64,000 nucleotides of DNA from contig CAYVFI010000032.1 in the NCBI GenBank assembly GCA_964450955.1, forward strand, positions 8,491 through 72,490, written 5' to 3'. This document shows, piece by piece, positions 6,630 through 43,458 of the stretch (the first letter of the stretch is position 1; each line of letters starts with the position of its first letter). The position numbers and the translations under genes are program-made. Origin of the DNA: an uncultured Planctomycetaceae bacterium. GTDB taxonomy: Bacteria > Planctomycetota > Planctomycetia > Planctomycetales > Planctomycetaceae. The notes under the pieces are model-generated. The model was not told where the DNA came from, made no database searches, and saw only the letters and a program-made list of their open reading frames with translations.

Positions 6630-6941
6630 CGATCGTGTGTTGGCATTGCTACGTCCTCGCCAGTGACCACACGGACGTCCGGAGTGCTAAATCGGTACCG
6701 TTGCTCCGCCCGCCGAATCGGCGGCAGCCCGTAGTCAATCGCGAGGTCCTGGAGGTACGCAATCTCAGAAGTCGAATGCAACCCGCTGTCGACATCGACG
6801 CGATACACCGGGACTTGGGGAATGAGACACAGCAACACGGGTACTACCAGCATTAGATTGCCCATTCGTGGTTGTGAAAGCAGAAAAAGCGACCGCAAAC
6901 TGAGTCTGCGGTCGCTTCGAATTTTGGCTGGCTACGGACTA

Positions 6942-8291
6942 TTACTCGCCGTCAGCGTCGCCTTTCTTCTCAGACTTGGCGTCTTTTTTCTCTTCCGAGT
7001 CGCCATCGTCTTCTTCAGATTCTTCTTCGTCTTCATCGTGGTTGCTGAGATCAACTTCGTGGCCGGCTTCGGCCATGAGTGTCTCAAGAGCTTTGTCGAG
7101 ACTAGCACCGCGAACGTTCTTGTAGCGAATTTTGCCTTCACCATCGAGGACATAGATTGTCGGCCAAGCGCTGACATTCCATGCTTTTGAAATTGGTCCG
7201 CGGGTGCCTTCCGGGCCATTCCAAAAACTACGCCACGAGATGTTCTCTTCTTCAAGAACGTCCTTCAGCTTTTCTCGATCACCGTCGCTGTTAACGCCAA
7301 TCAAAGCAAATGGTTTACCTGCGAGCTTCTTCACGAGCGACCGCTCGTGAGGGTACATAGCCCGGCAAGGTCCTCACCAATTGCCCCAGAAATCCAGCAA
7401 CACAATTTTGCCTCGATAGTCGGTGAGTTTGAACTCAACACCATCCAGGTCTTCGGCTGCGATTTCCGGAGCTTCTTTGCCAATGCTTAAGTACTGAATT
7501 TCGAACAGCGCGTCCTTCGCACTGTCGCCGATTGGTACCCCGCGTCGTTCGACAGAGGCGTACTTCTTCACCACGGTTTCGTAGAGCGCCTCAACTTCTT
7601 TCAGCGTCTCACCCTCGGCACCACGTGCCATCAGGTCGGCTAACGACATCGTCGCCAGAGCCTTTACAGTTTCGGAAGGGTTCTCTTTGATCAGCGATCG
7701 AAACCGTGCTTCGGCTTTCGGGCGAGGTACACCAAAGCCAGAGACTCCCACGACCAGCTCCATGGCTTCGCTGTCGGCGTAGTTTTCAAACATGAAGTCC
7801 AAAGCCGATTGCCGTTTCTCAGCCGGTCCATTGGCGGCAATCCACGCCATCGATTGAGCAGCAATCTGCTCCATCTCAGCCAGATATTGTTCTCTATCGG
7901 GTTGTCCCTTTGATTTCAGATATTTGGTGACCGCGTCGCGACCTTCCTTAGCTGCCTCGCGATAGCCTTTCATGAAGTTCTTGTCACGTGTCGCCTTCAT
8001 GAACTCCTGAGTCTTGCTGTCGTAAGAATCAGTCAGACTCCTGACGGCATCGAGAGCCGGGGTCTTCACGACTTCTTTGACGGCTTCCTTTTCAGGAGCA
8101 TCTTCGTCTTTCGAGTCATCTTCTTCTTTGGCGTCTTTCTTTGCTTCTTCCTTTTCGCCCTTTTCCTGGTCTTCAGCCTTCTTGTCTTCCTGAACCGGAG
8201 CAAAGGCTACCGGATCTGGTTCAAACGCGTTTGTCGCGTCGAGGCCGAACAACAGCAAGAGGCCGGCGATCAATATGCCGGAGTGCCGCAT
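6942..8291 (-). CDS. TlpA/ResA-like thioredoxin-family protein, candidate selenoprotein. An in-frame TGA at 7374..7376 is read as Sec, giving the motif W-U-G-P-C.
   Basis: ORFs 7374..8456 (ending ...KIVLLDFWGNW*) and 6942..7358 are in the same frame and separated only by a TGA. Translating through it gives FWGNW-U-GPCRAMYPHERSLVKKLAGKPFALIGVNSD, a textbook thioredoxin WCGPC active site with Sec in place of the first Cys. The probable start is MRHSGILIAGLLLLFG at 8291 (signal peptide). Acidic K/E/D-rich low-complexity regions follow the signal peptide and occupy the C-terminus. Confidence 0.6.
7331..7350 (-). promoter_or_regulatory. Candidate bacterial SECIS hairpin downstream of the UGA at 7374..7376
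   Basis: The mRNA 3' of the UGA is GGACCUUGCCGGGCUAUGUACCC then UCACGAGC-GGUC-GCUCGUGA. This is a perfect 8 bp stem with a 4 nt loop containing G and U, starting 24 nt after the UGA. Confidence 0.4.
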
Positions 8292-31154: not shown

Positions 31155-32846
31155 TTAAGCATCCTTTGGCGGAGCTGGTTTGTCTTTGGCGTTTGCCAGT
31201 TTTTGCTCGACCACCGACTTTCGCTGCACAACAGGCTTCTTTTTCACCTGTTTCTCCTCAGACTTCGCTTCTGCGATCGTTCCATTCTCTTCGCCGCTGG
31301 ACGGACTTAATTTGGCGATAAATTCAGGAATTTCGATGCCCGCGATATCTTTCATCGTGTGCATCATCGGAGGCAGGCTGTGTGATAAGCCCTGCAGGAA
31401 GTTAGATGTAGCCGACTGGCCATTGCCGTTTCCTCCGCCACCTTCCCAGACCACGACCTTGTCGAACTTGATGTTCGAGATCGCCTTGGCTGAGCTTTCT
31501 GCCAGGTTGTCCAGGTGTTCCAGCATCAGCATCTGGAACGCTTGTTCTGAACCGCCACACGCGTTGACGATTTCTCGCAGGCCTTCTCCCTTCTTCGCGA
31601 GAATCTCGTACTGGCCGCGAGCTTCGGCTTCCAGCTTGGCGTAAATCGCTGCCGCTTCACCTTCGGCTTCCAGTCGCATCTGTTCGGCTCTGGCTTCGGC
31701 TTCGACGATGGTTCTGGCCTTCTCAGCTTTCGCCGGAGCTTCCAGTTCGGCTCGACGTTCTGCTTCGACTCGTTGTGCATCGGCGAGAGCCGCTTTGGCC
31801 ATCGCCAGGTTCTGCGCTTCTTCGACGGCGGCCTTCGCTTCTTTTTCTCTGGTCTCACCAAGTTGGTAAGCTTCCGCTTCCTTGACCTGCAAGGCCGCTT
31901 TTGCCGCAGCAACTTTGGCCTGAGCCTGAGCTTCACCGGCAATCGCGAGAGCTTTCGCTTCAGCAACCGCGATTCTTTTTTCGCGGTCAGCATCAGAAAC
32001 CAAAGCTTCCTTCTCAAACAGTTCTCGTTGTTCGCCGACTTCCTGTTCCTTGTCCAGTTCGGCAACTCGAACCGCTTGTTCGCGAGCCGCTTCTCGCATT
32101 CCAATTTCGCGAGCCTTGGTTGCGTTCGCCACTTCGACCATCTTGTCTCGGTTAGCGGCTGCCACACGAACTTCACCCAGTCGGACTTCGTCGGCCACGT
32201 CACCGCGAGCACGCTGAACCGCTTCCGATGCAGCCTTCTGACCGATGGCTTCGATATAGCCGCTCTCGTCTGTGATGTCGGTGATGTTGACGTTAATCAG
32301 CGTCAGGCCGATCTTCGACAGTTCTGGTTCCAGCGATGTTTGAACGGCTGTGAGGAACTGTTCGCGGTCGCGGTTAATGTCTTCAATTTTCATTGAAGCA
32401 ATCACCTGCCGCAGCTGACCGAAGATGATGTCCTCCGCCTGCTTTTTAACCTGAGCCGTATTTAAACCCAGCAATCGAATTGCTGCGTTTTGCATAATCT
32501 CCGGCTGTGTTCCGATCGCGACCGTAAACACGCTGGGCACGTTGACACGGATGTTCTCACTGGAAAGCGCGTCTCGTAGCGGGACTTCAATCTGAATTGG
32601 TTCCAGACTTAGGTACTCGTAGTCCTGCACAACGGGCCAGACAAATTTACCGCCACCATGCACACACGTTGCAGAGCGACCGCCTTTAACCTGACCATAG
32701 ATGACCAGAACCCGGTTACTCGGACAGCGTTTGTATCGGCTGGCGTACCCCACGACGGTTCCGAGCAGCGCGATAATAATCACGCCGACAATCATGACGG
32801 GCCCGGTTAGTTCTGGCAGTTGAGCCAGGATTTCGTAATCCAGCAT
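31155..32846 (-). CDS. Flotillin-like SPFH/band-7 protein (YqiK/FloT-type)
   Basis: The start is MLDYEILAQLPELTGPVMIVGVIIIALLG (TM, ATG at 32846). An SPFH domain is followed by a long E/A/K-rich coiled coil and then a flotillin C-terminal region. Confidence 0.85.
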   Translation of the reverse strand: MLDYEILAQLPELTGPVMIVGVIIIALLGTVVGYASRYKRCPSNRVLVIYGQVKGGRSATCVHGGGKFVWPVVQDYEYLSLEPIQIEVPLRDALSSENIRVNVPSVFTVAIGTQPEIMQNAAIRLLGLNTAQVKKQAEDIIFGQLRQVIASMKIEDINRDREQFLTAVQTSLEPELSKIGLTLINVNITDITDESGYIEAIGQKAASEAVQRARGDVADEVRLGEVRVAAANRDKMVEVANATKAREIGMREAAREQAVRVAELDKEQEVGEQRELFEKEALVSDADREKRIAVAEAKALAIAGEAQAQAKVAAAKAALQVKEAEAYQLGETREKEAKAAVEEAQNLAMAKAALADAQRVEAERRAELEAPAKAEKARTIVEAEARAEQMRLEAEGEAAAIYAKLEAEARGQYEILAKKGEGLREIVNACGGSEQAFQMLMLEHLDNLAESSAKAISNIKFDKVVVWEGGGGNGNGQSATSNFLQGLSHSLPPMMHTMKDIAGIEIPEFIAKLSPSSGEENGTIAEAKSEEKQVKKKPVVQRKSVVEQKLANAKDKPAPPKDA

Positions 32847-32975
32847 GTTTGGTCCCTTAAGTTTAAGTTTGTTCTGTTTGGTTAGACGCCAGTGTCCCGA
32901 CGCCCGCGCGCAACTTGTGCGCTGATGATTTGTTTGGTGTGCAGTGTGCGGTGGCAACCCGCACTTGATTACCGG

Positions 32976-33605
32976 CTACATTGAACCGGTTCCGATGAAG
33001 GCGTATTCGCTGTCAGTCGCATGAGCAACTTCAAGAACCTCACCCAGAACGCCCACAACCACGATTGGCGTTCCGGTCTTCAGTGGGGCACCAGCAGTGA
33101 CAGCCGGGTACTCCATCGTCCGTTCGCCCACACGAACGGTGACCTTGCCGGGTGTTTCTTTTTTGGCACCAACCGACAGGTAAACAGTTCCCGCCTGACC
33201 GACGGTGTCTTCAATGTGAACCGTTCCGTCTGCAGTCAATTTGTGCATGCTTCGGATCAGGAATCCGACGGCGTACATAGTTGCCCCGGCCGCGATCATT
33301 GCACTTAAAGTGGCTTGCAGCGGAGTGAAGTGATCTTTCAGCGTTGACCCGGTAAGCCCAAACACGGCGATGGCCGCAAGTATGGCGCGGGTGCTAAGCA
33401 TCCCGACCAGCCAGGTATCACCGACTCCACCGTGACCGACGTCGATGTCGGTATCCACGTCGAGATCAATGTCCATGTCGACATCCATGTCGACCGCATC
33501 CAGCCCATCCAGATCGCTGCCGCCGAGACCGACCAGGCCCATGGCCATCTGAATGAGGACCAGCGTTCCGCCGATCATTGCACAGTAGCTATAGACCGAT
33601 TCCAT
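32976..33605 (-). CDS. NfeD-like membrane protein (partner of flotillin/stomatin) with an inserted Asp-rich repeat
   Basis: 209 aa ORF with N-terminal TM helices and a C-terminal OB-fold-like segment (GKVTVRVGERTMEYPAVTAGAPLKTGTPIVVVGVLGEVLEVA). It sits immediately upstream of the flotillin gene in the same orientation. It contains DLDGLDAVDMDVDMDIDLDVDTDIDV. Confidence 0.7.
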   Translation of the reverse strand: MESVYSYCAMIGGTLVLIQMAMGLVGLGGSDLDGLDAVDMDVDMDIDLDVDTDIDVGHGGVGDTWLVGMLSTRAILAAIAVFGLTGSTLKDHFTPLQATLSAMIAAGATMYAVGFLIRSMHKLTADGTVHIEDTVGQAGTVYLSVGAKKETPGKVTVRVGERTMEYPAVTAGAPLKTGTPIVVVGVLGEVLEVAHATDSEYAFIGTGSM

Positions 33606-34198
33606 AGCGTTCCTCGCTAGAGCCAGAATTGTTCTTTCAATTGGCAGAACGTCGGGTTCTTAATCGGGTTCATGTGAATTCAGAAGTTTTTTCACGCGTC
33701 ACCTGGGATATGGGCCTTCTTGCAAATGGCGGTCTAAATGCCGCGGAAAAGCTATTTTGAACCGCTGACGTCTTAGGCAGCCAGGTACGAATAGAGGGCC
33801 GGAAAGGCCGGTGCCCGACTCGGCTGCCCGCTGCCTCAACCTCGCCCTTCGAAATCCGTGTCCGAAATTCGAAGTTCAATTTGTTCCCGAACCGGAACCA
33901 CCGACCGCTTGAATGATGCCCTGGTATCTCGGCAGTAGCATATAGCAGCGTAAGTGAATGTTTGCCGAGCCGATCCGGGTTCAGGAGTTTCAAAGCAGTC
34001 ACACTTAATGGCGACGGCGCCGGAACCCGGCTGCAAAGAACCGTAAGTGGTGCTAACGGCAAGCAAACCCACATCAATCGCCCGCAGTCCGCGCTCGCTG
34101 CGGTGCGGACTGCTGTCTGGTTCCTCCAATCCCTGGGTTGCCAGGGGTGTCCCGAGCCAGCCGTCAGAATGACAGACGACCGCAGGCTGGAATAAAAA

Positions 34199-34233
34199 GA
34201 GCCTCGCGAGCTTTTCGGGGGCTCGCGAGGCTC
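34199..34233 (-). terminator. Candidate Rho-independent terminator (minus-strand sense)
   Basis: Perfect 13 bp inverted repeat GAGCCTCGCGAGC ... GCTCGCGAGGCTC with a 9 nt loop. On the minus strand it is followed by TTTTTATT. No annotated minus-strand gene lies upstream of it. Confidence 0.35.
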
Positions 34234-34592
34234 CGTAATACCAGGTCAGCAACCACGCGGTTGCGTCTCCCGGCAGGCCCGTGAGAACTGACTGACTAAG
34301 ATCCTTGACGAGTGACGAGCAAACAAAAACAGAAACAGGACGTGGCGGACGTGGCCCATTTAGATAGCGAACAGGGGGCTGCGTTCTTCCAAAAAATGAT
34401 TGCAATCATCCAGGAAAGACAGCAGGTGGCCCATCTCACGGCCTTAAAGTCGGTACGGCCGGCCTAACAGCGACCAGAGCGACCTGTGTGCGTCGCACCC
34501 GCAACGTCGATCGGCAATCGATCGACTCTCGAATATCCGCGGCAAGCCCTGGCCTTGCGCCCCGGCGCCCCAACGACACTGGCGTGGCTTGT

Positions 34593-34660
34593 TGCGGCTC
34601 GGAATGCTGCGGCTCGGAATGTTGCGGCTCGGAATGTTGCGGCTCGGAATGCGCACGAGG
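34593..34660. repeat. Tandem direct repeat, 15 bp unit GTTGCGGCTCGGAAT, about 4.5 copies (one variant GCTGCGGCTCGGAAT)
   Basis: Read directly in the sequence. It lies about 180 bp upstream of the ECF sigma factor start. Confidence 0.8.
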
Positions 34661-34840
34661 GGCGTTCTCCGCCTCGAACCCAAAAAGTCCGGTGGAGTGT
34701 CTGCGAAGTACTAACTGCGGGTGTTCAAAGTGCCCAGTCCGGGCTACAAATCAAGGGCGCGACTCGAGAGGATTTGCGTCCCCCCTCACTACCGAAGCAA
34801 TAGTTGTTCATTGATCTTCCAAAAAACGAGTTGGAGACAA

Positions 34841-35512
34841 ATGGCGGGCATGCACACAAGCATCACCATGCTGCTTGACGCCGGAAAACACCGTGACGCC
34901 AACGCGTGGGCTCGGCTTGCAAAGGCTTACGAGCCACTTATTACGAAATGGATACGGCAACTGGGTGTTGGGTCGTCTGATGTTGCGGACCTCACGCAGG
35001 ACGTGCTTCTTGCGCTCGCGTCGGATCTCGAACACTTCAACCACAATGGCCGGATTGGTGCCTTTCGCAATTGGCTGCGAACGATTGCCGTGAACCGCTG
35101 CCGCCGGTACTGGACCGCGCAAGGCCGTCGGGTTGATACGCCGGACGTGGAAAGGCAGCTTGACCAGCTGGCAGATCCGCAAAGTGAGCTAACCAGACGC
35201 TGGGACTTAGAACACGACCAATTTGTGCTGCAGCAACTGCTGAATGATTTGCAGTTCGTCTTTGATAAACGGTCGATTGAAGTGTTCCATCGCGTCACAC
35301 TTCTGTCTGAGCCGCCCACCGACGTGGCTCGAGAGTTTGGCCTGACGACCGGGCATGTTTATAAGATAAAATTTCGTGTGATGCGAAAACTTGAGCAGGC
35401 TGCCAGCGAGCTGAATGACGATATCTTGTCCAGGCCGCACTTCAATCTGGCTGATAAAGCCGATGACAAAGCTGCGATGAAACGGACTCCGGATAAACGA
35501 CGCCACGGATGA
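34841..35512 (+). CDS. ECF-type RNA polymerase sigma-70 family factor
   Basis: The start ATG at 34841 is preceded by GGAG. Region 2-like and region 4-like segments are present (VARNVAARN...; LQFVFDKRSIEVFHRVTLLSEPPTDVAREFGLTTGHVYKIKFRVMRKL). Its stop overlaps the start of the downstream kinase gene (ATGA). Confidence 0.8.
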   Translation: MAGMHTSITMLLDAGKHRDANAWARLAKAYEPLITKWIRQLGVGSSDVADLTQDVLLALASDLEHFNHNGRIGAFRNWLRTIAVNRCRRYWTAQGRRVDTPDVERQLDQLADPQSELTRRWDLEHDQFVLQQLLNDLQFVFDKRSIEVFHRVTLLSEPPTDVAREFGLTTGHVYKIKFRVMRKLEQAASELNDDILSRPHFNLADKADDKAAMKRTPDKRRHG

Positions 35513-38406
35513 GCGATCAGGCAATTGATTTTGAAGGGCATCACCCTGACTCTGATACGCTGGAACAATACCTCAGCGATGCACTTCAGGATCCGCAGGC
35601 AAGTTCAGTCGGCGCGCACATCGACTGCTGTGCTGAGTGTCAGACAACGCTTGAGGAAATGACAAACTCGTTTCGTGTTGCCGCTAAGCTGCGCGATGCC
35701 GATTTTTCGAGATCGAATTTCGTCAACAACCAAAGCCCGGTAACACACGACAAAGCCGCGGATCGGTTTACATTGAAGGAGGAGATCGCGCGCGGCGGTA
35801 TGGGCATTATCTATCGCGCACACGATCAGGAACTTGATCGCGAGGTCGCAGTTAAGGTGCTCGCACGCGAACAGTCGGTAGCCAGGGCGCGGTTCGAACG
35901 CGAATCGCGGCTGTCAGCGCGATTGCAGCATCCGGGCATCGTTCCCATCCACCAATCCGGAACATTGAGCGACGGTCGCACATTCATTGCCATGAAACTG
36001 GTTGCCGGAAACACTCTTCGGGCACTGATTGACGAACAACCCGACGCGCGACAACGGCTGCAGCTTCTTGATGTCTTTCACCAGGTGTGTCAGGCCGTCG
36101 CGTATGCGCACAGCGCGGGGATTGTTCATCGCGATCTGAAACCGTCGAACATCATGGTTGGTGAGTTCGGTGAAGTGCAGGTCATGGACTGGGGCATCGC
36201 GAAAGTCTGGGCGACAGACAAGTCACCGACTGCGCAAACGGACCTGGACGTCTTAATGTCGGTTGACGTCACTCGTTATGGCAGTGTTGTCGGAACACCG
36301 GCGTACATTCCGCCCGAACAAGCTCGAGCGGAACCGGCAGATTGCCGAGCGGATGTTTTCGCACTGGGTGGCATTCTTCTTGAAATTATGACCGGGCTGC
36401 CGCCTTTCCACGGGCAAACTTCGACCGAAGCTTTGAAGAAATCTGCCGCCTGTGACACGTCGGGCATTCAGCAACTTCTCAATCTGGCTGAGGCGGATTC
36501 ATTGCTGCTGGCACTCGCAAAGGACTGTCTGGCGGCCGATCCGCAAAGCCGCCCGGCAGACGCGAGTGTTGTCAGCGATCGCCTGCAGGCCTACTTCTCA
36601 AGTCGTGACGAACGCCTGCGTGCGGCTGAGTTCGATAAGGTACGATCGACAGAGCGTCTGGCTGCGGAAGTCAAACGCCGCCGGCAAACCTTGCTGTTCG
36701 GCGTGGTCGTCGTGGTCGGGCTCATCGCAGCGCTGGGGCTGTCGATCCTTTATCTCAACGAAAAGAATACACGGCAGACCGAACGACTGCAGGCCAATCG
36801 AGATGCTCGCGAACGCAGGTTGGATCGCGAATCGAAAGTACGAGTACTGATTGCTAAAGCAACATCGCTACAGGCGCAGGCAGCCAGTGCCAGCAAACAG
36901 AACCAATACCAACTTTGGCAGGACGCCCAGCTGGAACTAAACAAGACCTCCGGACTGACTGACCGTGAACTTGATCCAGGACTTCAGGCCACTCTGGCGT
37001 TAGTGCGTGAGCAAGTTGATACACAGGTTGCCTCGGCTCGAGAGCGCCTCGAACGTCAGCGGGCCGAACAGCGGATTGTCGACGCAATTCGCGCGGCCAT
37101 CACGCGATCGCAATCGCCGGATACGCTCATGCAGTTCAACCCGGAATCGGCTATCGCTGAAAGCCTTGAGGATTCGTTCGCAAAGTTTGGACTCACCGTT
37201 GGCTGCGATTTCCAGCAAAGCGTGACGCAGATTGGTGACAGCGAACACGTCAACGAATTCCTTGCTGGTCTGAACCTCTGGCGTCGCCAAACATCAGATT
37301 CGGACGCAGAGCAGTGGTTTGGCTCATTAATTGACGCGTTGGACAACAACGAATTCCGCAGGAATCTGCGTGCCTACGCACAGGCCGGCGATCGTGCGGC
37401 TGTTACAGCGGCGGCGGACGACGATTCTGCTCTGGATTCGGTTTTGTCAGTACACACCATGATTAACAGCCTTGAATCGATCAAAAACATGTCGCGCCTG
37501 AAGACCTTCTTGCACGCGGCCCATACGCGGTTCCCGGATGACATGGAAATAAACTGGACGCTGGGGTGTCTCTACGCGCAGGCCTATCCGCAGAGTTCTC
37601 GACTCGCGATCCGGTACTTTCTGGTCTGTCTTGGACTGCAGCCGGACAACCCAGGCGTGTTGATAAATCTGTCATACCATGCGGCTCGCGATGGAGACTC
37701 TGAGGGCGCACGCGAGTATGCCGAACGACTAACGCACGTCGCGCCGAACTATCCCCAGCCATGGGTGAACCTGACGAAGCACTACGGCCAGAAGGGCAAC
37801 CTGAAAAAGTCGCTGGAGTGCGCAGACCGAGCCATTGCCATTGCGCCGAACTTCGCCACCGCACATCGAAATCGCGCAGTGGCGTTGCGAATGTTGGAAC
37901 GCTACGACGATGCACTTGCGTCGGTTGAACGCAGCATCGAACTGGAACCGCACAACCCGGTCGGCTACGGCTACCTTGCGGAGATCTATGAGGTAAGCGG
38001 CAAACCAGACCAGGCTCTCAAAGCCGCGCAAGCTGCAGTCGATCAAAGCCGATCGTCGCTGACAAGCCTTCTTTACCTGGCCCGCTTCCATGTTCGTCAG
38101 AACAACGATGAACTCGCGCTACCGATTTACCGCAAGCTCACCCGCCGGTTCCCCAACGCGTCGGCGGCATGGAAGGATTACACTACGTTGCTGCTACGCA
38201 CAAAGCGCTACGAAGAGGTTGTGACTCGCCTTAGCAAACCCGGCAAGGGGCTCCGTCTTACCAGCCAGCTTAAGCAGGCTCTCGCAATCGCCAGGCGTGA
38301 ACAAGGCAACCAGGCCACGACGCTCGAAACTGCTGTCGAATCGTTGTCCGACGACACGCCGGCTACTGGTCAGTCACAGGATCGCAGTGCCCAGGACAAT
38401 CGGTAG
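35509..38406 (+). CDS. Ser/Thr protein kinase with an N-terminal anti-sigma-like zinc-finger motif, a TM segment and C-terminal TPR repeats
   Basis: 965 aa ORF. The N-terminus has a H-x3-C-x2-C motif (GAHIDCCAECQ). A Hanks kinase domain follows (VAVKVL, HRDLKPSNIMV, DWGIAK, GTPAYIPPE). A hydrophobic segment lies around residue 390, and TPR repeats follow. Confidence 0.85.
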   Translation: MSDQAIDFEGHHPDSDTLEQYLSDALQDPQASSVGAHIDCCAECQTTLEEMTNSFRVAAKLRDADFSRSNFVNNQSPVTHDKAADRFTLKEEIARGGMGIIYRAHDQELDREVAVKVLAREQSVARARFERESRLSARLQHPGIVPIHQSGTLSDGRTFIAMKLVAGNTLRALIDEQPDARQRLQLLDVFHQVCQAVAYAHSAGIVHRDLKPSNIMVGEFGEVQVMDWGIAKVWATDKSPTAQTDLDVLMSVDVTRYGSVVGTPAYIPPEQARAEPADCRADVFALGGILLEIMTGLPPFHGQTSTEALKKSAACDTSGIQQLLNLAEADSLLLALAKDCLAADPQSRPADASVVSDRLQAYFSSRDERLRAAEFDKVRSTERLAAEVKRRRQTLLFGVVVVVGLIAALGLSILYLNEKNTRQTERLQANRDARERRLDRESKVRVLIAKATSLQAQAASASKQNQYQLWQDAQLELNKTSGLTDRELDPGLQATLALVREQVDTQVASARERLERQRAEQRIVDAIRAAITRSQSPDTLMQFNPESAIAESLEDSFAKFGLTVGCDFQQSVTQIGDSEHVNEFLAGLNLWRRQTSDSDAEQWFGSLIDALDNNEFRRNLRAYAQAGDRAAVTAAADDDSALDSVLSVHTMINSLESIKNMSRLKTFLHAAHTRFPDDMEINWTLGCLYAQAYPQSSRLAIRYFLVCLGLQPDNPGVLINLSYHAARDGDSEGAREYAERLTHVAPNYPQPWVNLTKHYGQKGNLKKSLECADRAIAIAPNFATAHRNRAVALRMLERYDDALASVERSIELEPHNPVGYGYLAEIYEVSGKPDQALKAAQAAVDQSRSSLTSLLYLARFHVRQNNDELALPIYRKLTRRFPNASAAWKDYTTLLLRTKRYEEVVTRLSKPGKGLRLTSQLKQALAIARREQGNQATTLETAVESLSDDTPATGQSQDRSAQDNR

Positions 38407-38654: not shown

Positions 38655-40100
38655 TCAGACTTTCAATTCGACCTCGGCGGTATCCGTATCATACCGATCG
38701 CGAATAGGCCCGACGACTTCTCGCACAAACGCATCCACCTGCTCCGGCGCGCGGCCGATGTAACGGGAGGCGTCGAGGGTGGATTCGAGATCGATACCGG
38801 CAAAGGCGGCGTTCGTTTTCAAGCGATCAATCAGGTCGTTGGGTTTGCCTTCCTCTTTCACAACTCTGGATGCTTCGTGGCTGTGAACACGAATGACTTC
38901 GTGAAGCTCCTGCCGATCGCCGCCTGCTTTGACACCCGCCATGAGAATTTCTTCGGTCGCCATGAACGGCAACTCGCCAGACAGATGTTTTTCGATGACC
39001 TTCGGATACACCACAAGTCCATCACACACGTTGCGGTAAATCAGCAGCACAGCATCGATGGTCAAGAACGACTGCGGCAAAGACAGACGCCGGTTGGCGC
39101 TGTCGTCGAGCGTGCGTTCCATCCATTGCACAGCCGCTGTGTCGTCGGCGTTCCTGGCAAGTGACATGGCGAACCGGGCCAGCGCACACATGCGTTCGCT
39201 ACGCATGGGGTTGCGCTTGTAGGCCATCGCGGACGAACCAATTTGGTTCTTGCCGAACGGTTCTTCCACTTCTTTGCGGTGCTGCAGCAGGCGAATGTCA
39301 GAACCCGCTTTGTGGGCCGACTGGCCAATGCCGCTTAGTGTCGCCAGGACATGCGCATCGACTTTGCGCGAATAGGTTTGTCCGGTTACGGAGTAACGGT
39401 TGTCAAAGCCCATCTTCTTCGCGACCAGTTGATCCAGTTGATCGACCTTGTCGTGGTCGCCGCTGAAGAGTTGCAAAAACGTGGCCTGCGTGCCGGTGGT
39501 TCCTTTGACTCCTCGGAACCGAAGTGACGCCAGGCGGTGTTCGACTTCTTCCAGATCCAGCACAAGGTCGTAACACCACAGCGTCGCGCGTTTGCCGACA
39601 GTTGTTGGTTGAGCCGGCTGCATGTGCGTGAAGCCAAGGCAGGGGATGTGTTTGTTTTCTTCCGCGAATTTTGCCATCTGGTCAATGACGCTGACCAGCC
39701 GTTTGCGGATCAGCAGCAGGCTGTCTCGAATCTGCAGCAGTTCCGTATTGTCCGTGACAAAACAGCTGGTCGCACCGAGGTGGATGATGGGCTTTGCGTT
39801 GGGGCATTGTTCGCCCCATGTTTCCACGTGCGCCATCACGTCGTGTCGACGGTTCTTTTCATGAACCGCGGCGCGGTCGAAGTCGATGTCGTCGATGTGT
39901 GATTTAAGTTCGTCAATCTGCGACTGTGAAACGTCGGTGAGTCCGAGTTCCAGCTGCGATTCGGCCAGTGCGATCCAGAGTCGTCGCCACGTCGAGTGCT
40001 TGGTCTGAGCGGACCAGATGCCGCTCATTTCTGTCGACGCGTAACGGGTGTTCAATGGGTTTTGATAGATGTCGTGACTCAAGGTTCCGGGAAACTCCAA
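38655..40100 (-). CDS. purB: Adenylosuccinate lyase
   Basis: 481 aa ORF with full-length similarity to the fumarate-lyase superfamily PurB (N-terminus [30 protein letters not shown]...). Confidence 0.9.
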
Positions 40101-43364: not shown

Positions 43365-43458
43365 CGGGAATGGATGGGAATCGAACCCACCTGGCGACTT
43401 TTCAGCCGCCACAACGGATTTGAAATCCGCGGCAGTCACCAGATCTGCGAACACTCCC
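43365..43458 (-). tRNA. selC: Candidate selenocysteine tRNA (anticodon UCA)
   Basis: The minus-strand sequence is GGGAGTG-TTC-GCAG-ATCTGGTGA-CTGC-C-GCGGA-TTTCAAA-TCCGT-TGT-GGCGGC-TGAAAA-GTCGCC-AG-GGTGGG-TTCGATT-CCCATC-CATTCCC-G. The acceptor stem is 7 bp and the T stem 6 bp, giving a 13 bp coaxial acceptor/T domain. The anticodon loop is UUUCAAA, with U33, anticodon UCA and A37. The variable arm is long (6 bp stem, 6 nt loop). The T-loop is TTCGATT, the discriminator is G73, and CCA is not encoded. The D-arm fold is ambiguous by eye. Confidence 0.65.

What the first reader, a model, noticed from the sequence alone, without database searches (positions are those of the whole stretch)
34841..38406. 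Translationally coupled ECF sigma factor and Ser/Thr kinase carrying an anti-sigma-like zinc-finger N-terminus
The sigma gene stop overlaps the kinase start (ATGA). The kinase N-terminus carries an H-x3-C-x2-C motif, as found in zinc-binding anti-sigma domains. This is followed by a Hanks kinase, a TM helix and a long TPR array. That architecture suggests an anti-sigma factor whose release is governed by phosphorylation, with a periplasmic or extracellular sensory TPR domain. This is a regulatory route distinct from classical RIP-dependent ECF signalling. Planctomycetes are known to pair ECF sigmas with Ser/Thr kinases.
Basis: partly seen in the sequence, partly recalled or inferred. Interest (0 to 1): 0.5.

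Follow-up and report, generated by a model that had tools for sequence, protein, structure and literature searches.

The report
Sigma factor with anti-sigma–kinase fusion partner
A planctomycete operon pairs an ECF sigma factor with a membrane protein that joins a zinc-finger anti-sigma domain, an active-looking Ser/Thr kinase and a periplasmic TPR sensor, a conserved but uncharacterised way of wiring a kinase to a sigma factor.

Summary
An ECF sigma gene (34841-35512) overlaps by ATGA a 965-aa gene (35509-38406). That gene encodes H12-x24-H37-x3-C41-x2-C44, then a Hanks kinase with all catalytic residues, one TM helix and a roughly 550-aa all-helical periplasmic region ending in a TPR superhelix.

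The N-terminus misses Pfam zf-HC2 on its own (E=0.049). A profile of nine homologous N-termini matches solved zinc anti-sigma domains: DdvA 2.5e-8, ChrR 3.4e-5, RslA and RsiW. The four zinc ligands are invariant in 44 homologues. The AF2 model ranks only ZAS anti-sigmas at the top of the PDB search.

Among 91 loci encoding relatives of this sigma (mostly Planctomycetota), 53 have the fused ZAS-kinase immediately downstream. Only 6 of the 120 closest kinase-domain homologues carry it. The C-terminal sensor varies between TPR, DJ-1/PfpI and WD40.

The sigma keeps its acidic region-2.2 motif, so it is not an ECF43-type phospho-activated sigma and would plausibly need an anti-sigma.

Anti-sigma sequestration with kinase-controlled release is the best reading. 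Binding and phosphotransfer remain untested. The literature I could read describes kinase-linked ECF groups as lacking anti-sigma factors. I class this as a new variant of a known kind, of moderate interest.

The parts
34136..34840 (+). Conserved non-coding leader and promoter region upstream of the sigma gene
   Evidence: It is collinear with orthologous locus L013 at 83% nucleotide identity from 34136 through the end of the kinase gene. Indels are not multiples of three. No bipartite ECF-type promoter motif is shared across the family.
34841..35512 (+). ECF (group 4) sigma-70 factor gene, 223 aa
   Evidence: Sigma70_r2 4.4e-11. TIGR02937 5.9e-19 over residues 22-187. There are 25 relatives in the 5.8-billion protein set and 83 in GTDB species genomes.
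34916..35131 (+). Sigma region 2 (residues 26-97), including the region-2.2 acidic motif D47-V-A-D50
   Evidence: Pfam stretch 26-97. D47 is D/E in 98% and D50 is D in 100% of 83 family members.
35264..35401 (+). Sigma region 4 helix-turn-helix (about residues 142-187)
   Evidence: The region alone gives only weak Sigma70_r4 (E=0.058) and KORA HTH hits. It is covered by the full-length TIGR02937 match.
35509..35512 (+). ATGA overlap of the sigma stop and the kinase start
   Evidence: Read directly from the sequence. The same 4-nt overlap occurs in L001, L013, L034 and L085.
35509..38406 (+). Gene for the 965-aa ZAS-kinase-TM-TPR protein
   Evidence: ORF, domains.
35536..35706 (+). Zinc-binding anti-sigma-like domain (residues 10-66), with ligands H12, H37, C41 and C44
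   Evidence: All four ligands are invariant in 9 and 44 homologues. A family profile hits DdvA 2.5e-8, ChrR 3.4e-5, RslA 1.6e-3 and RsiW 0.011 in PDB. AF2 gives helices 15-22, 28-40 and 42-66 with pLDDT 81-86 over residues 11-50. The top nine Foldseek PDB hits are all ZAS anti-sigmas, but with E>=0.55. Pfam zf-HC2 for this protein alone is E=0.049, below threshold.
35707..35769 (+). Disordered Ser/Thr-rich linker (residues 67-87)
   Evidence: pLDDT is below 50. In the family the linker is not conserved, has a median length of about 25 residues, and is 17% Ser/Thr versus 10.6% in the rest of the protein.
35770..36573 (+). Hanks-type Ser/Thr kinase domain (residues 88-355)
   Evidence: Pkinase 3.3e-42. 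K116, E132, H207-R208-D209, K211, N214, D227, G229, activation-loop T255 and E270 are invariant in 44 homologues.
36688..36759 (+). Single transmembrane helix (residues 394-417)
   Evidence: It is the only 19-residue window with Kyte-Doolittle hydropathy above 1.6 (maximum 2.81). KRRR lies on its N-terminal side.
36763..37110 (+). Periplasmic long-helix (coiled-coil-like) segment (residues 419-534)
   Evidence: AF2 gives helices at model residues 2-43, 46-61 and 73-117, with pLDDT 72-90. No Pfam family matches. The segment is conserved in about 12 related loci.
37249..38349 (+). Periplasmic TPR superhelix (residues about 581-947)
   Evidence: About 24 short helices with pLDDT 85-97. Foldseek matches the O-GlcNAc transferase TPR domain at 8.9e-12. 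Pfam TPR families hit between 754 and 891.

Best explanation
This is a two-gene sigma/anti-sigma module in which the anti-sigma factor is itself a receptor kinase.

Shown:
- The second protein is a single-pass membrane protein.
- Its cytoplasmic part has a class-I zinc-binding anti-sigma domain (ZAS; ligands H12, H37, C41, C44), joined by a roughly 20-residue disordered linker to a catalytically intact Hanks kinase.
- Its periplasmic part is a long-helix stalk plus a TPR superhelix.
- The ZAS-kinase core is conserved next to this sigma family, while the outer sensor domain is swapped.

Inferred:
- The ZAS domain binds the co-expressed sigma and holds it at the membrane. The sigma has an intact acidic RNAP-binding motif, so it should be active by default.
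- A ligand or protein partner bound by the TPR domain changes the kinase state, probably through dimerisation and phosphorylation of activation-loop T255.
- The kinase then phosphorylates something within reach of its active site: the anti-sigma domain or linker in cis or trans, or the bound sigma. That lowers affinity and frees the sigma to bind core RNA polymerase.

The nearest precedent works in trans. M. tuberculosis PknB phosphorylates the ZAS anti-sigma RshA and thereby releases SigH.
For: - Anatomy.
- Anti-sigma identity of the N-terminus: the profile matches solved sigma-bound ZAS domains, the four ligands are invariant, 15 of 44 family members pass Pfam zf-HC2 at E<=1e-3 with a best value of 5e-7, and the fold ranking agrees.
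- Genetic linkage: 53 of 91 sigma loci have the fusion immediately downstream, two more are split by probable frameshifts, and four have it elsewhere in the locus. ZAS is present in 56 of 58 kinase-type ORFs (55 kinases plus one ZAS-pseudokinase) directly downstream of a sigma relative, against 6 of 120 nearest kinase-domain homologues (Fisher p=1e-36).
- Reverse test: a ZAS-kinase picked through its kinase domain (P0028) also has an ECF sigma 30 nt upstream.
- Active kinase: catalytic residues and activation-loop Thr are invariant.
- Default-active sigma: the region-2.2 D47/D50 motif is retained, unlike ECF43 sigmas, which replace it with phosphorylatable residues (PMC8999054).
- Modular sensors: TPR in about 14, DJ-1/PfpI in 9 and WD40 in 6-7 of 44.
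- Natural split variant: in L086/L088 a soluble ZAS-pseudokinase is followed by a separate active TM kinase. The ZAS module is therefore retained even without its own catalysis.
- Precedent for kinase-driven release of a ZAS anti-sigma: PMC8999054 and PMC13147305.
Against: - There is no direct evidence of sigma binding, zinc binding or phosphotransfer.
- This protein's own zf-HC2 score is below Pfam's threshold (14.2 versus 22.2 bits).
- Foldseek E-values for the 90-residue model are not significant (>=0.55).
- No clear fourth ASD helix is predicted.
- 25 of 91 sigma relatives have no kinase or ZAS within 5 kb, and one ZAS-kinase (P0129) has no adjacent sigma.
- The Ser/Thr enrichment of the linker is typical of any disordered linker.
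- Conserved Ser/Thr positions in the sigma (T6, S115, T145, T169) are equally conserved in relatives without a linked kinase.
- No shared autoregulatory promoter was found.
Confidence: 0.55

Rival explanations
1. Docking model. The ZAS-like domain is not an inhibitor. It is a substrate-recruitment module that brings the sigma to the kinase, and phosphorylation of the sigma itself activates, stabilises or relocalises it. The outcome would resemble ECF43 but act at a different site.
For: - Direct phosphorylation of an adjacent ECF sigma by a TM Hanks kinase is the only experimentally shown mechanism for such pairs: EcfP/PknT and EcfK/PknS.
- The short linker would place a bound sigma next to the active site.
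- Conserved Ser/Thr residues exist in the sigma N-terminus and in the sigma2-sigma4 linker motif DPxSxLS.
Against: - The acidic region-2.2 motif is intact, so no charge needs restoring.
- The conserved Ser/Thr residues are equally conserved in kinase-less relatives.
- All structurally characterised relatives of the domain (ChrR, RslA, RsiW, DdvA) are inhibitors.
Confidence: 0.2
2. Classical membrane anti-sigma with a parallel kinase output. The sigma is released by regulated intramembrane proteolysis of the TM protein, as for RsiW and RslA-type factors. The kinase domain independently phosphorylates other cellular targets.
For: - The overall topology (N-terminal ASD, one TM helix, extracytoplasmic sensor) is that of RIP-controlled anti-sigmas, and RsiW is the best structural match.
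- Membrane-bound anti-sigmas are the ancestral and commonest mode of regulation (PMC7671368).
Against: - It does not explain why ZAS is almost exclusive to sigma-adjacent kinases, or why the kinase is always placed between the ASD and the membrane with invariant catalytic residues.
- A roughly 300-residue folded kinase between the ASD and the TM helix would remain attached to the ASD after site-2 cleavage.
- No protease gene lies in the module.
Confidence: 0.15
3. Redox or zinc switch. The H/H/C/C site senses thiol oxidation or metal status, as in RsrA and RslA, and releases the sigma independently of kinase activity.
For: - The HxxxCxxC ZAS motif includes an extra adjacent cysteine, C40.
- Some ZAS anti-sigmas are redox sensors (PMC8999054).
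Against: - C40 is not conserved in the family.
- The His-His-Cys-Cys ligand set matches ChrR, where to my knowledge zinc is structural rather than a redox sensor (this point was not checked here).
- This model does not account for the obligatory kinase and periplasmic sensor.
Confidence: 0.07
4. The motif is fortuitous, and the N-terminus is only a leader or dimerisation segment of an ordinary planctomycetal kinase that happens to lie next to a sigma gene.
For: - This single sequence fails Pfam's zf-HC2 threshold.
- Planctomycete genomes contain very many kinases and ECF sigmas.
Against: - Chance expectation is 3e-5.
- The four ligands are invariant at 20-35% overall identity.
- The profile gives significant hits to solved anti-sigma domains.
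- The association test gives p=1e-36.
Confidence: 0.02

Closest known systems
Class I zinc-binding anti-sigma factors (ZAS / Pfam zf-HC2): ChrR-RpoE (2Q1Z), RslA-SigL (3HUG), RsiW-SigW (5WUQ), DdvA-DdvS (8RLZ)
   Same: - The H/C-x24-H-x3-C-x2-C ligand pattern, with spacing identical to ChrR.
- Three N-terminal helices.
- The gene lies immediately downstream of its ECF sigma.
- For RslA, RsiW and DdvA, a single TM helix followed by an extracytoplasmic domain.
   Different: - A complete, catalytically intact Hanks kinase of about 270 residues is inserted between the anti-sigma domain and the TM helix.
- No clear helix 4 is predicted.
- This sequence alone scores below the Pfam threshold.
ECF43 sigma / Ser-Thr kinase pairs (EcfP-PknT of Vibrio parahaemolyticus, EcfK-PknS of Xanthomonas citri)
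   Same: An ECF sigma is encoded next to a single-pass transmembrane Hanks kinase that is thought to sense an envelope or external signal.
   Different: - ECF43 sigmas lack the acidic DAED motif and are switched on when phosphorylation supplies the charge. This sigma keeps D47/D50.
- The accounts of the ECF43 kinases that I could read do not mention an anti-sigma domain.
Planctomycetal kinase-linked ECF groups ECF59-ECF62 (formerly ECFSTK1-4) and ECF217
   Same: The phylum, the sigma-then-kinase gene order, and kinases with TPR or WD40 C-termini. Reviews note that groups other than ECF43 keep a DAED-like motif and that their mechanism is open.
   Different: [quoted passage not shown] Here the kinase itself carries one.
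- I could not test whether this sigma falls in one of those groups, because no group HMMs were available.
M. tuberculosis PknB acting on the ZAS anti-sigma RshA (SigH) and on RseA (SigE)
   Same: A Hanks kinase controls release of an ECF sigma by phosphorylating its zinc-binding anti-sigma factor (PMC8999054; PMC13147305).
   Different: There the kinase and the anti-sigma are separate proteins encoded apart. Here they form one polypeptide encoded in the sigma operon.

Membership tests
ECF (group 4) sigma-70 factors | Sigma region 2 and region 4 only, with a match to the ECF superfamily model above its cut-off | tested here: met
   Sigma70_r2 scores 42.9 bits (cut-off 24). TIGR02937 scores 68.3 bits (cut-off 42.9) over residues 22-187. 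Region 4 alone is weak (E=0.058).
Named planctomycetal sigma subfamilies (TIGR02989 Sig-70_gvs1, TIGR02984 Sig-70_plancto1) | Score above the NCBIfam subfamily cut-off | tested here: not met
   TIGR02989 scores 42.7 bits against a cut-off of 124.55, and TIGR02984 scores 26.4 against 183.75.
ECF43-type phospho-activated sigma | Loss of the acidic DAED motif in region 2.2, replaced by Ser/Thr | tested here: not met
   The motif here is D47-V-A-D50. D/E is present at position 47 in 98% and D at position 50 in 100% of 83 relatives. No Ser/Thr is conserved at positions 43-49.
ECF59-62 / ECF217 (kinase-linked planctomycetal ECF groups) | Assignment by ECF Hub group HMMs | not testable with these tools
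   No group HMMs or representative sequences were available. The supplements of PMC7826278 are not held.
ZAS / zf-HC2 anti-sigma domain | H-x3-C-x2-C motif plus an upstream His or Cys ligand about 23-26 residues away | tested here: met
   H12-x24-H37-x3-C41-x2-C44, invariant in 9 and in 44 homologues.
ZAS / zf-HC2 anti-sigma domain | Sequence match to the family model | tested here: inconclusive
   This protein alone gives E=0.049 and 14.2 bits, below the cut-off of 22.2. However, 15 of 44 family members hit at E<=1e-3, and the family profile hits DdvA, ChrR, RslA and RsiW at 2.5e-8 to 0.011.
ZAS / zf-HC2 anti-sigma domain | Helical ASD fold | tested here: inconclusive
   AF2 predicts three helices with pLDDT 81-86 over residues 11-50. 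The top nine PDB matches are all ZAS anti-sigmas (RsiW: rmsd 1.2 A over 45 columns), but E>=0.55 and helix 4 is not resolved.
ZAS / zf-HC2 anti-sigma domain | Binds zinc and the cognate sigma | not testable with these tools
This needs experiment.
Hanks-type Ser/Thr protein kinase | Catalytic Lys, alphaC Glu, HRD...N loop, DFG Asp and APE Glu | tested here: met
   K116, E132, H207-R208-D209, N214, D227 (as DWG) and E270 (as PPE) are all invariant in 44 homologues. Pkinase E=3.3e-42.
TPR repeat proteins | Tandem helix-turn-helix repeats forming a superhelix | tested here: met
   Several Pfam TPR families score above their cut-offs. The AF2 solenoid matches the OGT TPR domain at 8.9e-12.

The most novel reading that the evidence does not exclude
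The ZAS-kinase fusion may define a distinct and widespread class of ECF regulator in Planctomycetota, with outliers in Methylococcales and Verrucomicrobiota. One polypeptide would both sequester the sigma and use its own kinase activity, gated by an exchangeable periplasmic sensor, to release it. If so, at least some ECF groups now catalogued as 'kinase-regulated and lacking an anti-sigma factor' are in fact anti-sigma regulated. That would explain how kinase-linked sigmas with an intact acidic motif are kept off.
Probability: 0.4. Interest if true: 0.65.

Novelty: new variant of a known kind. Interest (0 to 1): 0.5.

Why it matters
ECF sigma factors and Hanks kinases are two of the main bacterial signalling systems. 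Their known link, ECF43, works by phosphorylating a sigma that is inactive by default. Reviews state that the mechanism for the other kinase-linked groups, which keep the acidic RNAP-binding motif, is open (PMC8999054).

A kinase with a built-in zinc anti-sigma domain suggests a concrete and testable answer: sequestration plus phospho-controlled release within one protein. It also offers a compact, sensor-swappable module that could be useful for synthetic signalling circuits.

The caveat is that the architecture can be seen in domain annotations (zf-HC2 + Pkinase). It may already be noted in group descriptions that I could not read.

Tried and rejected
I have no model of the complex.
2. A homologue search with the N-terminal profile A1 in the 5.8-billion set returned one protein, which reflects the limits of the word index.
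3. A single-sequence search of residues 1-69 against 1.84 billion representatives gave only 37 hits. These were the orthologue, a few short fragments, multi-ZAS repeat proteins and some repeat-driven false positives. It was not usable for estimating family size.
4. I searched for a shared -35/-10 bipartite motif in the 250 nt upstream of 52 family sigma genes. The best motif occurred in 6 loci, against 4-5 in shuffled controls, so there is no evidence of a common autoregulated promoter.
5. ECF-group assignment was not possible. The supplements of PMC7826278, Jogler 2012 (PMC3497475) and Wiegand 2020 (PMC7286433) are not held.
6. Eight literature searches for a described anti-sigma/kinase fusion found none. 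Absence from this library does not prove absence.
7. I looked for sigma Ser/Thr positions specific to kinase-linked loci and found none. T6, S115, T145 and T169 are equally conserved in unlinked relatives.
8. Ser/Thr enrichment of the ASD-kinase linker is real (p=1e-5) but not specific, because disordered linkers are generally Ser/Thr-rich.
9. I considered the upstream 15-bp tandem repeat as a regulatory element. It is absent from the orthologous loci, so I set it aside.

Full report
**What is in the sequence**

The region holds two same-strand genes.

The first gene runs from ATG 34841 to TGA 35510-35512 and encodes 223 aa. GGAG lies 5 nt upstream of the ATG. The closest database relative begins with the same MAGMHTS.

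The second gene runs from ATG 35509 to its stop at 38404-38406 and encodes 965 aa. The junction reads ATGA, so start and stop overlap by four bases. There is no other in-frame start between the preceding stop and the first conserved residue, His12. The overlap therefore does not depend on annotation choice.

The first protein is an ECF sigma factor. Sigma70_r2 gives 4.4e-11, and the ECF superfamily model TIGR02937 gives 5.9e-19 across residues 22-187. It fails every narrower NCBIfam subfamily model.

The second protein has these parts:
- A Hanks kinase domain at 88-355 (3.3e-42), with RGGMG, K116, HRDLKPSN, DWG and PPE motifs.
- A single hydrophobic segment at 394-417, with KRRR on its N-terminal side. 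The kinase is therefore cytoplasmic and residues 418-965 are outside.
- TPR matches in the C-terminal third.

An AF2 model of residues 418-965 (mean pLDDT 78.7) is entirely helical. It has three long helices, a disordered stretch, and then about 24 short helices with pLDDT 85-97. These match the O-GlcNAc transferase TPR superhelix at 8.9e-12. The window contains no other relative of this sigma, no other kinase and no other ZAS-like segment.

**Is the N-terminus an anti-sigma domain?**

A further histidine, H12, lies 24 residues upstream, the same spacing as the ChrR zinc ligands.

Taken alone, the segment is only a sub-threshold Pfam zf-HC2 hit (E=0.049; 14.2 bits against a cut-off of 22.2). 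I therefore collected the genes downstream of sigma homologues. Their N-termini align with H12, L26, H37, C41 and C44 invariant at 21-32% identity.

A profile of nine of these N-termini matches solved anti-sigma factors and nothing else of note: DdvA 2.5e-8, ChrR 3.4e-5 (aligned from His6), RslA 1.6e-3 and RsiW 0.011.

In a wider set of 44 full-length homologues the four ligands remain invariant. Fifteen of those proteins hit zf-HC2 at E<=1e-3, with a best value of 5e-7.

AF2 on residues 1-90 gives helices 15-22, 28-40 and 42-66, with pLDDT 81-86 for residues 11-50. Residues 65-90 form a disordered tail. The nine best Foldseek matches among 350,542 PDB chains are all zinc anti-sigma factors. 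RsiW gives rmsd 1.2 A over 45 columns. The E-values (>=0.55) are not significant for so small a domain, so I count this as consistent rather than as proof.

Chance expectation for the four-ligand pattern in 87 residues of this composition is 3e-5.

**Conservation of the pair**

The sigma belongs to a small family. There are 25 clusters in the 5.8-billion protein set and 83 matches in GTDB species genomes, of which 80 were fetched. Nearly all are Planctomycetota (Pirellulaceae, Planctomycetaceae, Gemmataceae, Isosphaeraceae). A few are Methylococcales or Verrucomicrobiales, and some MAGs are probably mislabelled. The closest is an uncultured Planctomycetaceae MAG, at 88% protein identity and 83% nucleotide identity from 34136 to 38306.

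I scanned all six frames of 91 loci with local HMMs for the sigma, the kinase and the ZAS segment. The results were:
- 53 loci have a fused ZAS-kinase ORF immediately downstream.
- 2 have it split, in low-coverage long-read contigs.
- 2 have a ZAS ORF only. One is cut by a contig end. The other is a ZAS-pseudokinase.
- 4 have a ZAS-kinase elsewhere in the locus.
- 2 have a kinase without ZAS.
- 3 end too soon to tell.
- 25 have neither. Their neighbours are unrelated genes.

By contrast, only 6 of the 120 closest kinase-domain homologues of this protein carry the ZAS segment. The association between a ZAS N-terminus and a position directly downstream of this sigma family gives Fisher p=1e-36.

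I tested the link in the other direction on two ZAS-kinases found through their kinase domains. One has an ECF sigma 30 nt upstream and the other has none.

The ATGA overlap itself is confined to the close orthologues and two other loci. Elsewhere there is a 16-nt overlap or a gap of 0-160 nt. An operon arrangement is conserved, but strict coupling is not.

The ZAS-kinase core is constant, whereas the C-terminus varies: TPR in about 14 of 44, DJ-1/PfpI in 9, WD40 propellers in 6-7, and no recognisable domain in the rest. The particular periplasmic domain of the window protein is shared by about 12 loci.

**Which mechanism?**

The only experimentally established kinase-ECF mechanism is that of ECF43. 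There the sigma lacks the acidic DAED motif of region 2.2, and phosphorylation restores the charge needed to bind core RNA polymerase (PMC8999054; PMC8103513; PMC13147305).

This sigma reads D47-V-A-D50. Across 83 relatives, position 47 is D/E in 98% and position 50 is D in 100%. No Ser/Thr is conserved nearby. The ECF43 mechanism therefore does not apply, and the sigma should be competent by default. That is the situation in which an anti-sigma factor is needed.

The kinase looks active. K116, E132, HRD, N214, D227, activation-loop T255 and E270 are invariant in 44 homologues. It is tethered to the ZAS domain by a short, unconserved linker (median about 25 residues) that is somewhat Ser/Thr-rich. 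Anything bound to the ZAS domain would sit close to the active site.

My best reading, at confidence 0.55, is sequestration of the sigma by the ZAS domain, with release controlled by the kinase in response to the periplasmic sensor. This would be a cis version of PknB acting on RshA in M. tuberculosis.

The shown steps are the anatomy, the conservation and the linkage. The inferred steps are binding, the phospho-target and the direction of the effect.

The rivals are:
- A docking role, with phosphorylation of the sigma itself (0.2).
- Classical proteolytic release, with the kinase signalling elsewhere (0.15).
- A redox or zinc switch (0.07).
- Chance (0.02).

A natural variant bears on this. 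In two Gemmataceae loci the sigma is followed by a soluble 322-aa protein made of the ZAS segment and a kinase-like domain that has lost the G-loop, HRD and DFG motifs. A separate, intact TM kinase without ZAS comes next. The ZAS module is therefore kept even when its own kinase domain is dead, which fits an anti-sigma role better than a purely catalytic one.

**Comparison with what is known, and novelty**

ECF-kinase pairing in planctomycetes has been catalogued as ECF59-62 and ECF217. [quoted passage not shown] A 2022 review notes that the non-ECF43 groups keep a DAED-like motif and may work differently.

Eight full-text searches found no description of a kinase carrying an anti-sigma domain.

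I therefore class this as a new variant of a known kind rather than something categorically new, and I score interest at 0.5.

**Limits**

- There is no ECF-group assignment.
- No family-wide promoter motif was found.
- Family size beyond the 91 loci could not be estimated, because the single-sequence search of 1.84 billion representatives lacked sensitivity.

Noticed in passing
window 34593-34652: A perfect-ish 15-bp tandem repeat (TGCGGCTCGGAATGC, four copies, 95% matches) lies about 190 nt upstream of the sigma start. Orthologous loci L001 and L013 have only a single diverged copy, so it is a lineage-specific expansion in an otherwise conserved leader.
   Followed up: partly
window 34136-34840: About 700 nt upstream of the sigma gene is conserved at roughly 83% with L013 but contains no convincing ORF. 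Its indels are not multiples of three and it has no Rfam match. It could be a long leader or regulatory region.
   Followed up: partly
window 43366-43458 (- strand): A selenocysteine tRNA gene (Rfam tRNA-Sec 65.6 bits; ARAGORN anticodon TCA). This implies the organism uses selenoproteins.
   Followed up: no
L086 5642-9334 and L088 5642-9322 (Gemmataceae MAGs): A split variant of the module. The sigma is followed by a soluble 322-aa ZAS + pseudokinase (no G-loop, HRD or DFG) and then by a separate active TM kinase lacking ZAS.
   Followed up: partly
proteins P0148, P0154, P0169 (from the representatives search): Membrane proteins of 380-440 aa carry two to four tandem copies of the same 'HP...H-x3-C-x2-C' module before C-terminal hydrophobic segments. 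They may be multi-ZAS anti-sigma factors.
   Followed up: no
L001 4574-7175 and L013 about 6867-7817: In the closest orthologous contigs a second sigma-kinase pair follows directly after the module. Its kinase has LRR-like repeats and no ZAS. In the window that position is occupied by an adenylosuccinate-lyase-like gene on the opposite strand (38655-40100). The module therefore sits in different neighbourhoods.
   Followed up: partly
protein P0129 (JGI 3300047160 contig): A ZAS-kinase whose first zinc ligand is Cys instead of His has no sigma gene upstream (a beta-helix giant protein instead). It is followed by a separate 795-aa TPR protein. This is a counter-example to strict sigma linkage.
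   Followed up: partly
L031 5809-8058: One 'orphan' relative of the sigma is followed by a protein combining a Peptidase_M50 (site-2-protease family) domain with HlyD-like domains. Three related loci (L024, L031, L036) have a 1300-aa kinase without ZAS upstream instead of downstream.
   Followed up: no
window 31155-33605 (- strand): Two adjacent ORFs upstream (600 aa and 209 aa) look, from their translations, like a flotillin/SPFH-type protein with a long Ala/Glu/Lys-rich coiled coil and an NfeD-like membrane protein. I did not check this with any tool.
   Followed up: no
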